From assembly GCA_000004985.1 (NCBI GenBank), contig GG739555.1: a stretch of DNA of 1,110 bases. One strand, given 5' to 3'. The notes below the pieces were generated by a model. The model had not been told where the DNA came from. It saw only the letters and a program-made list of their open reading frames with translations, and did not search any database. The translations under genes were made by a program, and so were the position numbers. Each line of letters opens with the position of its first letter. The first letter of the stretch is position 1. This stretch comes from Naegleria gruberi. Its lineage: Eukaryota. Shown in pieces: positions 1 to 1,110 of the stretch.

Positions 1-320
1 GTACTAATTATGATATGGCTTATATTGAAGGTATCTATAGAGTTGAAGAAGGCAGCGATATTCCTTGCATTCACCCAAATCCAAAACCAAAGGGCCATCC
101 AACAATGCTCATTGGTGATTTAAAGTTGAATCAATTCTTCAAATTATTGAAAGAAAGTGGCTTGTCAGCTGAGTTCCAACAAGGAGGTGTTCTTGTTTGC
201 AATGATGAAGTCATGTTGCAAAAGGATAAAAAGTCTGGAGAAATTCAAGTTTTTGGTTCTCTGAGTCCAACCTATTTCCAAGTTAGAGAATTGCTCTACA
301 AGTTCTATTCCGAACTTTAA
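1..320 (+). CDS. Coding segment of a eukaryotic protein-coding gene, 5'-partial in the window and ending at TAA 318..320; product not identified (ATG-to-stop ORF is 15..320, 101 aa)
   Basis: Seen in sequence: the frame is open from base 3 (codons ACT AAT TAT GAT precede ATG15) to TAA at 318-320, so the CDS may continue upstream of the window or start at ATG15. The segment is richer in G+C than the flanking DNA, with diverse non-repetitive amino-acid composition (…IHPNPKPKGHPTMLIGDLKLNQFFKLLKESGLSAEFQQGGVLVCNDEVMLQKDKKSGEIQVFGSLSPTYFQVRELLYKFYSEL*). There is no Shine-Dalgarno motif upstream of ATG15. ATTAAA immediately follows the stop. I do not recognise the family. Confidence 0.7.
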   Translation, partial: TNYDMAYIEGIYRVEEGSDIPCIHPNPKPKGHPTMLIGDLKLNQFFKLLKESGLSAEFQQGGVLVCNDEVMLQKDKKSGEIQVFGSLSPTYFQVRELLYKFYSEL

Positions 321-326
321 ATTAAA
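321..326 (+). promoter_or_regulatory. ATTAAA poly(A)-signal variant abutting the stop codon of the plus-strand gene (TAA ATTAAA)
   Basis: Seen in sequence at 321-326. ATTAAA is the commonest AATAAA variant (established knowledge). If used, the 3'UTR would be very short; TGTAAATAG at 341-349 is an alternative downstream A-rich element. Confidence 0.35.
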
Positions 327-463
327 CTCTTTTATTGCTATGTAAATAGTTGAATGTGTTGTATTCTAAATTTATTTCAAGAAGAAAACAATCAATGCAA
401 GCCTTTCAACACAAGAAAAACTTCATCACAACAACCCTAATGACGGAAATAAGTGGTAGTTTG

Positions 464-559
464 CAAAAAATCGAGGGGTAAAATCAGGTACCACTATCTG
501 AACAGTGGTTTTTATCAAATCCAGACCTGGCTTTTTGAAAAAGTGAGGGGTTGATTTGC
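464..559. repeat. Two imperfect direct repeats, A5-6 N(1-2) GAGGGGT + A/T-rich tail, at 464..485 and 537..559; a partial third copy TGAGGAC at 567..573
   Basis: Seen in sequence: caaaaaaTCGAGGGGTaaaatc versus gaaaaaGTGAGGGGTtgatttgc, with the GAGGGGT heptamers at 473-479 and 545-551, 72 nt apart. G4 runs are unusual in this AT-rich background. Confidence 0.3.
490..513. repeat. Short inverted repeat ACCACT-N8-AGTGGT (6-bp stem, 8-nt loop) followed by T5
   Basis: Seen in sequence: 490-495 ACCACT, loop ATCTGAAC, 504-509 AGTGGT, then TTTT to 513. It overlaps a GGTACC palindrome at 487-492. Confidence 0.3.
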
Positions 560-602
560 AATAAATTGAGGACTTGAATTTTTTACAATCATAACCTAAA
601 CT

Positions 603-608
603 TTTATT
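603..608 (-). promoter_or_regulatory. AATAAA poly(A) signal of the minus-strand gene, 5 nt downstream of TGA
   Basis: Plus-strand TTTATT at 603-608 is AATAAA on the minus strand. Minus-strand context: TGA CTCTT AATAAA AG. Confidence 0.45.
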
Positions 609-613
609 AAGAG

Positions 614-800
614 TCAACTTAGCAGAATGGAATGGTTGGAAAAATGACCAAGACTAAATGAATCAACAAATGAAAATGTGAGGTCTTTGAGGTTAGTAAT
701 TGGCTCTGTGAAAGTGTGAGTAAATTTCCCATCCACATAATTATCCAAAATAGCAAATACAGTATTGTTCTTCTCAATAAAACTTGTGATTATTACACTT
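614..800 (-). CDS. Candidate terminal coding exon of a minus-strand spliced gene (K + 61 codons + TGA at 614..616)
   Basis: Seen in sequence: the minus-strand frame is open for 64 codons (617..808) with stop TGA at 616..614. A TTTTAG acceptor (reverse complement of 801-806) places the exon start at 800. The translation is (K)SVIITSFIEKNNTVFAILDNYVDGKFTHTFTEPITNLKDLTFSFVDSFSLGHFSNHSILLS*. The phase joins exactly with the upstream exon 840..937. AATAAA lies 5 nt past the stop. It is not in the ORF track because it has no in-frame ATG. Confidence 0.5.
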
Positions 801-839
801 CTAAAATATTAGTTGCAATTTAGCCATGAAACCACTTAC
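801..839 (-). other. Candidate 39-nt GT-AG intron (minus strand): GTAAGTGGTTTCATGGCTAAATTGCAACTAATATTTTAG
   Basis: Seen in sequence: perfect donor AAA|GTAAGT and acceptor TTTTAG|A. Removing it joins the open frames 840..937 and 617..800 in phase (AA + A gives AAA, Lys). Without splicing the frame hits TAA immediately. Confidence 0.45.
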
Positions 840-937
840 TTTCCACTGCTAGTAAAAGCATATTGAGATTGATTTAAGTGAAAAATCCATTGATTTGACA
901 CTAGCAATGTTCCCTGAAACAGTCTTGACCACCAAAT
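840..937 (-). CDS. Candidate internal coding exon (98 nt, phase 0 start, phase 2 end) of the minus-strand gene
   Basis: Seen in sequence: preceded by CCCTTTCAG acceptor (intron ends at 938) and followed by the GTAAGT donor. Only one of three frames is open (IWWSRLFQGTLLVSNQWIFHLNQSQYAFTSSG + AA). That frame is the one compatible with both neighbouring exons. Confidence 0.45.
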
Positions 938-1037
938 CTGAAAGGGATGTATTAATACGGAAATCCTAAAGATATCAATAAATTAATTAATTTAAATACT
1001 TACATGATTCTTATCGATTAGTCGTAGAATTAAATAC
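938..1037 (-). other. Candidate 100-nt GT-AG intron (minus strand): GTATTTAATT…ATCCCTTTCAG
   Basis: Seen in sequence: donor AAG|GTATTT (GT is the complement of 1037-1036) and polypyrimidine-CAG acceptor (CAG is the complement of 940-938). The interior is AT-rich and contains a 16-bp AT palindrome. Confidence 0.4.
979..994. repeat. 16-bp perfect AT palindrome TAAATTAATTAATTTA inside the candidate 100-nt intron
   Basis: Seen in sequence: it is its own reverse complement. Low-complexity AT context. Confidence 0.3.
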
Positions 1038-1110
1038 CTTTGCCATTTTGCCAAAGTTGAGCACATATTTCAACAGAGCATCTTTAGTTTTACATAATAA
1101 ATGATCTTTG
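1038..1110 (-). CDS. Candidate upstream coding exon of the minus-strand gene, open to the window edge; alternatively only ATG GCA AAG (1046..1038) is coding, with ATG in an AAAATGG context
   Basis: Seen in sequence: minus-strand frame …KDHLLCKTKDALLKYVLNFGKMAK is the only open frame of three and ends in phase 0 exactly at the AAG|GT donor, matching the phase-0 start of exon 840..937. An in-frame ATG at 1046..1044 has A at -3 and G at +4. Confidence 0.33.

What the first reader, a model, noticed from the sequence alone, without database searches (positions are those of the whole stretch)
614..1110. Three-exon, phase-consistent spliced gene model on the minus strand, invisible to the bacterial-style ORF track
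Three minus-strand open segments (1038..1110, 840..937, 617..800) are separated by textbook GT-AG introns: AAG|GTATTT…CCCTTTCAG (100 nt) and AAA|GTAAGT…ATATTTTAG (39 nt). In each exon only one frame is open, and it is the frame that joins in phase across both junctions. The joined ORF ends at TGA 614..616 with AATAAA 5 nt downstream. If translation starts at ATG 1046..1044 (AAAATGG context), the product is a 97-aa protein of no family I recognise: MAK·IWWSRLFQGTLLVSNQWIFHLNQSQYAFTSSG·K·SVIITSFIEKNNTVFAILDNYVDGKFTHTFTEPITNLKDLTFSFVDSFSLGHFSNHSILLS. Splice signals, phase, open frames and a stop-adjacent poly(A) signal are unlikely to coincide by chance.
Basis: seen in the sequence. Interest (0 to 1): 0.55.

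Follow-up and report, generated by a model that had tools for sequence, protein, structure and literature searches.

The report
Possible unannotated spliced Naegleria gene
The window is a tiny Naegleria gruberi genome scaffold, and next to the tail of a known RNA-processing gene lies a tidy three-exon gene model that may be a real but unremarkable species-specific small gene, though sequence alone cannot show that it is more than a lucky open reading frame.

Summary
The window is a complete 1110-bp Naegleria gruberi NEG-M scaffold. Its + strand (3..320) encodes the C-terminus of CPSF100 (annotated NAEGRDRAFT_77127), and the model is a convergent minus-strand neighbour 293 nt away.

For a real gene:
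- It is the longest spliced ORF obtainable. It is matched by 4/600 shuffles under strict splice signals, but by about 6% under looser ones.
- The window's only two GTAAGT hexamers both lie on this strand at in-phase positions.
- AATAAA follows the stop by 5 nt.
- The model frame has the best codon-position composition.

Against:
- No homologue among 1.84 billion protein representatives. The one hit, a nematode galectin, is a repeat-inflated artefact.
- No Pfam, PDB or fold match.
- Amino-acid composition like the window's noise ORFs.
- An AlphaFold model no more confident than a noise-ORF control.
- No public annotation.

The 5' end is unresolved. The frame is open to the scaffold edge, and a stronger donor at 1003 gives a complete 115-aa alternative starting at ATG 1066.

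Verdict: a plausible (~50%) unannotated orphan gene of ordinary kind. It has low interest and needs transcript data.

The parts
1038..1110 (-). Exon 1 of models A and B. The frame KDHLLCKTKDALLKYVLNFGKMAK is open to the scaffold edge.
1004..1066 (-). Alternative exon 1 (model C). ATG 1066..1064 is the first ATG after an in-frame TGA. It encodes MCSTLAKWQRYLILRLIDKNH and ends at the donor CAT|GTAAGT (1003..998). It joins exon 2 in phase to give a complete 115-aa ORF.
938..1037 (-). Intron 1, 100 nt, GTATTT...CCCTTTCAG, 24% GC. It would be 66 nt (938..1003) if the GTAAGT donor is used. A branch-point-like TTAAT lies 14 nt before the 3' splice site.
840..937 (-). Exon 2, 98 nt, IWWSRLFQGTLLVSNQWIFHLNQSQYAFTSSG plus 2 nt of the split Lys codon.
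   Evidence: Its codon-position composition does not favour the model phase.
801..839 (-). Intron 2, 39 nt, GTAAGT...ATATTTTAG. A CTAAT lies 8 nt and a CTAAA 19 nt before the 3' splice site. Read-through hits TAA immediately.
614..800 (-). Exon 3 coding part (617..800, 61 codons) plus the stop TGA at 616..614.
   Evidence: Codon-position composition is best in the model phase.
603..608 (-). AATAAA hexamer 5 nt after the stop, a candidate poly(A) signal.
3..320 (+). Context: the C-terminal coding end of CPSF100/CPSF2 (annotated NAEGRDRAFT_77127 from Met 15). The stop is TAA 318..320 and is followed directly by ATTAAA at 321. This gene is convergent with the model.

Best explanation
The minus strand of 614..1110 carries an unannotated, lineage-restricted ('orphan') protein-coding gene of Naegleria gruberi, or its 3' part. 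It runs convergently to the CPSF100 gene.

The pre-mRNA would be processed by the ordinary U2-type spliceosome at two short GT-AG introns. The second is 801..839. The first ends at 938 and begins at either 1037 or 1003. Cleavage and polyadenylation would occur shortly after the AATAAA at 608..603.

The product is a small, phenylalanine-, serine-, threonine- and leucine-rich protein that is predicted to be mostly beta-strand. It is 115 aa if translation starts at ATG 1066, 97 aa if at ATG 1046, and longer if the gene continues beyond the scaffold edge. It has no recognisable domain.

What is shown: the signals, the phase-consistent ORF, the source organism and the neighbouring gene. What is inferred: transcription, splicing, translation and any function.
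For: - Source and setting: the scaffold is N. gruberi NEG-M. The published figures are 57.8% coding, 1.7 exons per gene and 33% GC, and introns as short as 30 nt are assumed for the genus. A neighbour 293 nt past the CPSF100 stop is therefore expected on prior grounds.
The opposite strand of the same region reaches only 147-273 nt.
- Shuffle nulls: 0/200 and 4/600 taking the best of both strands reach 354 nt with a GTA donor and a Y-rich YAG acceptor.
- GTAAGT occurs only twice in the 1110 nt. Both copies are on the minus strand inside the model (1003 and 839), where 0.16 are expected in 497 nt. Each gives an in-phase junction to a strong acceptor 66 or 39 nt downstream, with branch-point-like motifs.
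- AATAAA lies 5 nt after the stop. The certain gene on the other strand shows the same stop-adjacent arrangement, TAA followed directly by ATTAAA.
- The codon-position composition model trained on the CPSF100 exon scores the model frame at -1.5 bits, against -17.2 and -10.9 for the other frames. Shuffle p is about 0.05, and exons 1 and 3 are each best in the model phase.
- Intron 1 is 24% GC, against 32-35% for the exons.
- No alternative feature explains the region. There is no Rfam family or tRNA, and no Pfam hit in any other frame.
Against: - No homologue. The word-indexed search of 5.8 billion clusters found nothing. The exhaustive HMMER search of 1.84 billion representatives gave only a Meloidogyne hapla six-domain galectin at E=3e-4, a score summed over four near-identical repeats. 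Against a single-repeat profile the query scores 5.3 bits, and 9 of 2000 shuffles score higher. hhalign probability is 0.5%.
- No Pfam or PDB match, and no fold match.
- The amino-acid composition is close to a random translation of this strand (E 1.7%, R 0.8%, P 0.8%, F 10%). A proteome-versus-random log-odds gives -0.11 bit per residue. That is inside the range of the window's 18 noise ORFs (-0.27 to +0.02) and below the CPSF100 control (+0.06 to +0.08).
- Exon 2 alone does not prefer its model phase.
- With ordinary GT..AG or GTR..YAG signals, about 6% of shuffles match the ORF length.
- The AF2 single-sequence model has mean pLDDT 45.1, no better than 46.8 for a 75-aa noise ORF from the same strand.
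- No public protein record covers these exons. The only protein found for this scaffold is the CPSF100 fragment.
Confidence: 0.5

Rival explanations
1. Chance. The region is non-coding flank or intergenic DNA of an AT-rich genome. Stop-free runs of 50-75 codons and GT/AG dinucleotides are common there, so a reader or an enumerator can always thread a phase-consistent 'gene' through them.
For: - 12/200 and 16/250 shuffles reach the same spliced ORF length under normal GT-AG rules.
- 37 further lax three-intron extensions of the same ORF can be built.
- The window holds 19 stop-free runs of at least 30 codons, including 75, 66 and 56 codons in frames that are surely non-coding.
- The product's composition and AF2 confidence are indistinguishable from those noise ORFs.
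- There are no homologues and no annotation.
- A poly(A) hexamer falls within 30 nt by chance about 7% of the time.
Against: - Under strict signals only 4/600 shuffles match.
- Two perfect GTAAGT hexamers lie exactly at in-phase positions, where 0.16 are expected.
- The model frame has the best codon-position composition.
- Intron 1 is distinctly more AT-rich than the exons.
- The stop-adjacent AATAAA mirrors the arrangement of the neighbouring real gene.
- Gene density gives a high prior that roughly 500 nt here is genic.
Confidence: 0.33
2. The introns are real but the ORF is not. A spliced minus-strand transcript exists, as a non-coding RNA or as the untranslated part of a gene whose coding region lies beyond the scaffold edge. 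The long spliced ORF would be incidental.
For: - The splice-signal evidence (GTAAGT twice, strong acceptors, branch-point-like motifs) does not depend on the ORF.
- The protein-level evidence is uniformly negative.
Against: - If both introns are removed, a 115-118-codon frame staying open across both junctions has a probability of order 1e-3 to 1e-4. This is my own estimate from a stop frequency of about 0.07 per codon, derived from the base composition.
- No known RNA family matches.
- The AATAAA sits right after the stop.
Confidence: 0.1
3. A decaying remnant or pseudogene fragment of a formerly longer gene, stranded on an unplaced mini-scaffold.
For: - The frame is open to the scaffold edge with no secure start.
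- The composition is drifting towards random.
- The scaffold is only 1110 bp, and its other gene is also truncated at the scaffold edge.
Against: - There are no frameshifts or internal stops in the spliced frame.
- No parent gene or paralogue is detectable anywhere, N. gruberi proteins in the databases included.
- The CPSF100 piece looks intact, and no second N. gruberi protein with a similar C-terminus turned up. That argues for an assembly fragment rather than a degenerate duplicate.
Confidence: 0.07

Closest known systems
Ordinary intron-containing nuclear protein-coding genes of Naegleria gruberi (JGI NEG-M annotation: 15,708 genes, 1.7 exons per gene)
   Same: It shares the GT-AG introns, the short intron sizes accepted for the genus, the AT-rich composition, the tight convergent spacing to a neighbour, and a poly(A)-type hexamer close to the stop.
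   Different: It is not in the public annotation. It has no homologue or domain. Its amino-acid composition is near random. It has two introns within about 500 nt, compared with about 0.7 introns per gene genome-wide (derived from the 1.7 exons per gene).
Taxonomically restricted (orphan) genes, as reported in Heterolobosea. In N. fowleri, about 80% of the 458 orthogroups lacking an N. gruberi homologue have no homologue in any other organism. In Acrasis kona, about a third of proteins have no BLAST hit.
   Same: It is short, has no detectable homologue, has low-complexity-leaning composition and low structure-prediction confidence.
   Different: Most of the published orphans have transcript support: 404 of 458 in N. 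fowleri. This one has none available here.
Galectin carbohydrate-recognition domain (Pfam PF00337)
   Same: The only database hit is a six-domain nematode galectin. The aligned stretch covers the C-terminal beta-strands (FxxGxxF...V...F..F pattern), and the AF2 model is mostly beta.
   Different: - The query has no PF00337 hit.
- It scores 5.3 bits against a single-repeat profile, which is within the shuffle range.
- hhalign probability is 0.5%.
- The W-x-E-x-R sugar-binding motif reads W-I-F-H-L-N.
- Galectin structures rank only 38-39 in the fold search, at E about 1.7 and TM 0.2.
It is not a member.

Membership tests
Spliceosomal (U2-type GT-AG) intron-containing protein-coding gene | GT...AG boundaries with donor and acceptor consensus, a polypyrimidine tract and a branch-point-like motif | tested here: met
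   AAG|GTATTT or CAT|GTAAGT paired with CCCTTTCAG|, and AAA|GTAAGT paired with ATATTTTAG|. TTAAT and CTAAT motifs lie 14 and 8 nt upstream of the AG. The N. gruberi-specific consensus could not be retrieved.
Spliceosomal (U2-type GT-AG) intron-containing protein-coding gene | A single reading frame maintained across all junctions, ending at a stop, beyond chance expectation | tested here: inconclusive
   The frame is maintained. Shuffles reaching the same length: 4/600 under strict signals, but 16/250 and 12/200 under looser signals.
Spliceosomal (U2-type GT-AG) intron-containing protein-coding gene | Coding-type sequence statistics (codon-position bias, protein-like composition) | tested here: inconclusive
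   Codon-position LLR is best in the model frame, with p about 0.05. Amino-acid composition is indistinguishable from the noise ORFs.
Spliceosomal (U2-type GT-AG) intron-containing protein-coding gene | Conservation of the frame in related genomes, or detectable homologues | tested here: not met
   No credible homologue in the 5.8-billion-cluster or 1.84-billion-representative searches. Naegleria genome DNA itself could not be searched. The metagenome scan gave only an uninformative 1047-bp contig.
Spliceosomal (U2-type GT-AG) intron-containing protein-coding gene | Transcript evidence for the exon junctions and the poly(A) site | not testable with these tools
   No N. gruberi RNA or EST data are reachable. 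The contig look-up for the scaffold's annotated protein returned nothing.
Galectin (Gal-bind_lectin, PF00337) | Significant match to the family profile | tested here: not met
   No PF00337 hit at E<=10. 5.3 bits against a single-repeat profile, with 9 of 2000 shuffles scoring higher. hhalign probability 0.5%.
Galectin (Gal-bind_lectin, PF00337) | Conserved sugar-binding residues (H-x-N-x-R ... W-x-E-x-R) | tested here: not met
   In the BLASTP alignment the hit's W-T-P-E-D-R lines up with W-I-F-H-L-N in the query. The identity of the motif is from established knowledge of galectins.
Galectin (Gal-bind_lectin, PF00337) | Beta-sandwich fold matching solved galectins | tested here: inconclusive
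   The AF2 model is too weak (pLDDT 45). Foldseek against PDB finds nothing at E<=0.001, and galectin-3 appears at E about 1.7 and TM 0.2.
CPSF100/CPSF2 C-terminal domain (PF13299), for the neighbouring + strand gene only | Significant profile match and alignment to solved CPSF2 | tested here: met
   PF13299 E=2.5e-18, above the gathering score. Human CPSF2 6urg_F residues 692-780, E=1e-10.

The most novel reading that the evidence does not exclude
The model is a genuinely expressed, young (possibly de novo-originated) N. gruberi-specific gene. It would encode a small beta-rich protein of about 115 aa whose near-random composition reflects recent birth from AT-rich non-coding DNA, and it would already carry two efficiently recognised short introns.
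Probability: 0.3. Interest if true: 0.25.

Novelty: new member of a known kind. Interest (0 to 1): 0.15.

Why it matters
If real, it adds one missed small orphan gene to the N. gruberi annotation. It also illustrates that mini-scaffolds and short, homology-free, multi-exon genes are under-annotated in protist genomes.

It would not change any understanding of splicing, of Naegleria biology or of protein families.

The practical lesson is methodological. In roughly 32% GC DNA, a phase-consistent GT-AG 'gene' of about 120 codons arises in a few percent of random sequences, so such models need transcript or conservation support.

Tried and rejected
1. Galectin homology. The only database hit was P0002, a Meloidogyne hapla galectin with six PF00337 domains. 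I rejected it because its E-value is the sum over four near-identical repeats. The same protein also 'hits' unrelated Pfam families with zero significant stretches. The single-repeat profile score is within the shuffle range, hhalign gives 0.5%, the sugar-binding motif is absent, and there is no lineage link.

2. Structure route. The AF2 single-sequence model is weak, the Foldseek PDB search is empty, and a noise-ORF control scores the same pLDDT. This route is uninformative.

3. Synteny and conservation. The metagenome scan with the CPSF100 C-terminus gave one 1047-bp contig that ends at the match. The contig look-up for the annotated protein returned nothing. No Naegleria genome DNA is reachable.

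4. Published N. gruberi splice-site consensus. The genome paper is not held, and other papers give only intron counts and lengths.

5. Extending the ORF past the TGA into the adjacent 63-75-codon open frame with a third intron. This is possible only with weak donors such as GTTGAT or GTCATT, so I rejected it.

6. Alternative features:
   - RNA families and tRNA: none.
   - Other frames and the other strand: no Pfam hits, and the + strand's best spliced ORF is much shorter.
   - Intergenic hairpin and repeat motifs: folding is no better than shuffles.

7. Literature on NAEGRDRAFT_77127: none found.

Full report
**1. What the window is**

The + strand frame at 3..320 matches Pfam CPSF100_C (PF13299, E=2.5e-18). 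It aligns to residues 692-780 of human CPSF2 in PDB 6urg (E=1e-10).

A search with this fragment returned a 100%-identical 101-aa protein, 'predicted protein NAEGRDRAFT_77127 [Naegleria gruberi]' (XP_002667963.1 / EFC35219.1). Its longest recorded contig is 1110 bp. The window is therefore a complete mini-scaffold of the N. gruberi NEG-M assembly.

N. gruberi is a heterolobosean amoeboflagellate. Its genome is 33% GC and 57.8% coding, with 1.7 exons per gene and a mean intron length of 203 bp. Comparative work on the genus uses a minimum intron length of 30 nt (PMC8296547).

**2. The observation**

All coordinates, boundary sequences, lengths, phases and the quoted 97-aa translation were reproduced.
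- Exon 1 (1038..1110) is followed by a 100-nt intron, AAG|GTATTT...CCCTTTCAG|.
- Exon 2 (840..937) is followed by a 39-nt intron, AAA|GTAAGT...ATATTTTAG|.
- Exon 3 (617..800) ends at the stop TGA 616..614, and AATAAA lies at 608..603.
- Each exon is fully open in only one frame, and those frames join in phase.
- Retaining either intron introduces stops.

An exhaustive enumeration of ORFs with up to two introns confirms that this is the longest model obtainable on this strand (354 nt). The opposite strand of the same region reaches only 147-273 nt, depending on signal stringency.

**3.

The exon-1 frame (KDHLLCKTKDALLKYVLNFGKMAK) is open to base 1110, so the ORF may continue off the scaffold. 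I call this model A.

Inside 'intron 1' there is a second donor, CAT|GTAAGT at 1003..998, whose intron part matches the general GTRAGT consensus perfectly. Its upstream frame runs back 21 codons to ATG 1066..1064, which is preceded by an in-frame stop. It joins exon 2 in phase through a 66-nt intron. The result is a complete 115-aa ORF beginning MCSTLAKWQRYLILRLIDKNH|IWWS... (model C).

It has that same ATG 1066 upstream and out of frame, so by the first-AUG rule it is the least likely of the three, unless transcription starts within the 20 nt between them. That last step is inference.

**4. Is it more than chance?**

Dinucleotide-preserving shuffles of 614..1110 were run through the same enumerator. 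The table gives the number of shuffles reaching at least 354 nt.

| Splice signals required | Strands scored | Shuffles reaching 354 nt |
|---|---|---|
| any GT..AG | one | 12/200 |
| GTR..YAG | best of both | 16/250 |
| GTA donor + pyrimidine-rich YAG | one | 0/200 |
| GTA donor + pyrimidine-rich YAG | best of both | 4/600 |

- The strict signal definition was chosen after I had seen the data, so the fair p-value lies somewhere between 0.007 and 0.06.
- Unspliced open frames are unremarkable: 192 nt here against a shuffle mean of 168 nt.
- The window contains 19 stop-free runs of at least 30 codons. These include 75, 66 and 56 codons in frames that cannot be coding.

Partly independent support:
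- GTAAGT occurs only twice in the window. Both copies are on the minus strand inside the model (0.16 expected in 497 nt), and both are at in-phase positions.
- AATAAA lies 5 nt after the stop. The chance of AATAAA or ATTAAA falling within 30 nt is about 7%. The bona fide CPSF100 gene has ATTAAA abutting its stop, so stop-adjacent hexamers may be the local style.
- A codon-position composition model trained on the CPSF100 exon scores the model frame at -1.5 bits, against -17.2 and -10.9 for the other two frames, with shuffle p about 0.05. This test is biased by having selected an open frame, and exon 2 on its own prefers another phase.
- Intron 1 is 24% GC, against 32-35% for the exons.

**5. 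Is the product a recognisable protein?**

No.
- Pfam and PDB sequence searches are empty.
- The word-indexed search of 5.8 billion clusters is empty.
- The exhaustive HMMER scan of 1.84 billion representatives gives one hit, P0002, at E=3e-4.

P0002 is a Meloidogyne hapla protein with six galectin domains. Its score is summed over four nearly identical repeats. The same protein also produces absurd whole-protein 'hits' to unrelated Pfam families with zero significant stretches, which shows the size of the inflation.
- Against a single-repeat profile the query scores 5.3 bits, and 9 of 2000 shuffled queries score higher.
- hhalign gives 0.5% probability.
- The W-x-E-x-R motif is absent.

I therefore reject the galectin lead.

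The AF2 single-sequence model has mean pLDDT 45.1 and pTM 0.42. It is mostly beta, with an exon-3 meander at about 65-68. A 75-aa noise ORF from the same strand gives pLDDT 46.8 and pTM 0.23, so this carries no weight. Foldseek against PDB finds nothing at E<=0.001.

The amino-acid composition is F 10%, S 11%, L 13%, E 1.7%, R 0.8% and P 0.8%, close to a random translation of the strand. On a proteome-versus-random log-odds the candidate scores -0.11 bit per residue. That is among the 18 noise ORFs (-0.27 to +0.02) and not with CPSF100 (+0.06 to +0.08). The proteome reference there is the Swiss-Prot average quoted from memory, not N. gruberi-specific, so the test is crude. It did, however, separate the one positive control from all the negative controls.

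**6. Other explanations checked**

- There are no Rfam families and no tRNAs.
- No other frame or strand of 321..1110 has a Pfam match.
- The ORF can be extended past the TGA into the adjacent open frame only through weak donors.
- The intergenic hairpin and motif repeats fold no better than shuffles.
- Synteny could not be tested. The only related contig found is 1047 bp and ends at the CPSF100 match, and no Naegleria genomic or transcript data are reachable.

**7. Weighing**

The positive signals are the spliced ORF, the GTAAGT pair, the poly(A) hexamer, the frame-specific composition and the gene-dense context. Together they favour a real gene by perhaps one to three orders of magnitude over a shuffled-sequence null.

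The negatives are the noise-like protein composition, the absence of any homologue, the absence of an annotation and the lack of any fold signal. They pull back by about two orders of magnitude.

My estimates are as follows.

| Explanation | Probability |
|---|---|
| Real, unannotated, lineage-restricted protein-coding gene, or its 3' part | ~0.5 |
| Chance | ~0.33 |
| Real introns in a non-coding or untranslated transcript | ~0.1 |
| Decaying gene remnant | ~0.07 |

If the gene is real, the mechanism is entirely conventional: Pol II transcription convergent with CPSF100, U2-type splicing of two short introns, and cleavage after AATAAA. All of these steps are inferred. Only the signals themselves are shown. 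The function of the product cannot be assigned.

**8. Novelty and interest**

At best this is a new member of a known kind, namely a missed small orphan gene in a 2010-era protist annotation. At worst it is a chance ORF. Neither outcome would surprise a specialist, so the interest is low (0.15).

Noticed in passing
window 1..320 (+): The annotated 101-aa 'predicted protein' NAEGRDRAFT_77127 is the C-terminal domain of CPSF100/CPSF2. Its frame is open from base 3, upstream of the annotated Met at 15, so the gene is cut by the scaffold edge and the public model is a fragment with an uninformative name. No second N. gruberi protein with a similar C-terminus turned up, which suggests the rest of the gene sits on another scaffold.
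   Followed up: partly
window 318..326 (+) and 603..616 (-): Both convergent reading frames have a poly(A)-type hexamer almost touching the stop codon: TAA followed directly by ATTAAA, and TGA followed after 5 nt by AATAAA. This hints at very short 3' UTRs in this organism, with about 290 nt between the two stops.
   Followed up: partly
It offers an alternative in-phase donor (66-nt intron), or possibly alternative 5' splice-site use.
   Followed up: yes
window 429..653 (-), 168..365 (-), 622..789 (-): There are stop-free runs of 75, 66 and 56 codons in frames that are not plausibly coding: one intergenic, one antisense to CPSF100, and one overlapping exon 3 in another frame. They show how cheaply long ORFs arise in this DNA.
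   Followed up: yes
window 473..479 and 545..551 (+); hairpin 490..509: The intergenic spacer has two copies of GAGGGGT within similar contexts (TTTGCAAAAAATCGAGGGGT and TTTGAAAAAGTGAGGGGT). They flank a 6-bp hairpin, ACCACT-N8-AGTGGT. Folding energy is not better than shuffles (z -0.8 and -0.9), and there is no Rfam match.
   Followed up: partly
window 967..1005 (+ coordinates, inside intron 1): An AT-only palindromic stretch (AATTAATTAATT core) was reported as overlapping inverted repeats. There is also a 72% direct-repeat match of 976..1004 to 559..587. Both are probably low-complexity chance matches.
   Followed up: no
L001 826..1023: A 1047-bp metagenome contig (Ga0307997_10116658) encodes a CPSF100 C-terminus 40% identical to the Naegleria one, at the very end of the contig. 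It comes from an unidentified eukaryote in an environmental sample.
   Followed up: no
P0002 (Meloidogyne hapla galectin, 995 aa): This tandem-repeat protein gives whole-protein E-values as low as 1e-12 to unrelated Pfam families (for example CoV_RPol_N) with zero significant stretches. It is a clear example of repeat-summed score inflation, which can generate false homologues in large searches.
   Followed up: yes
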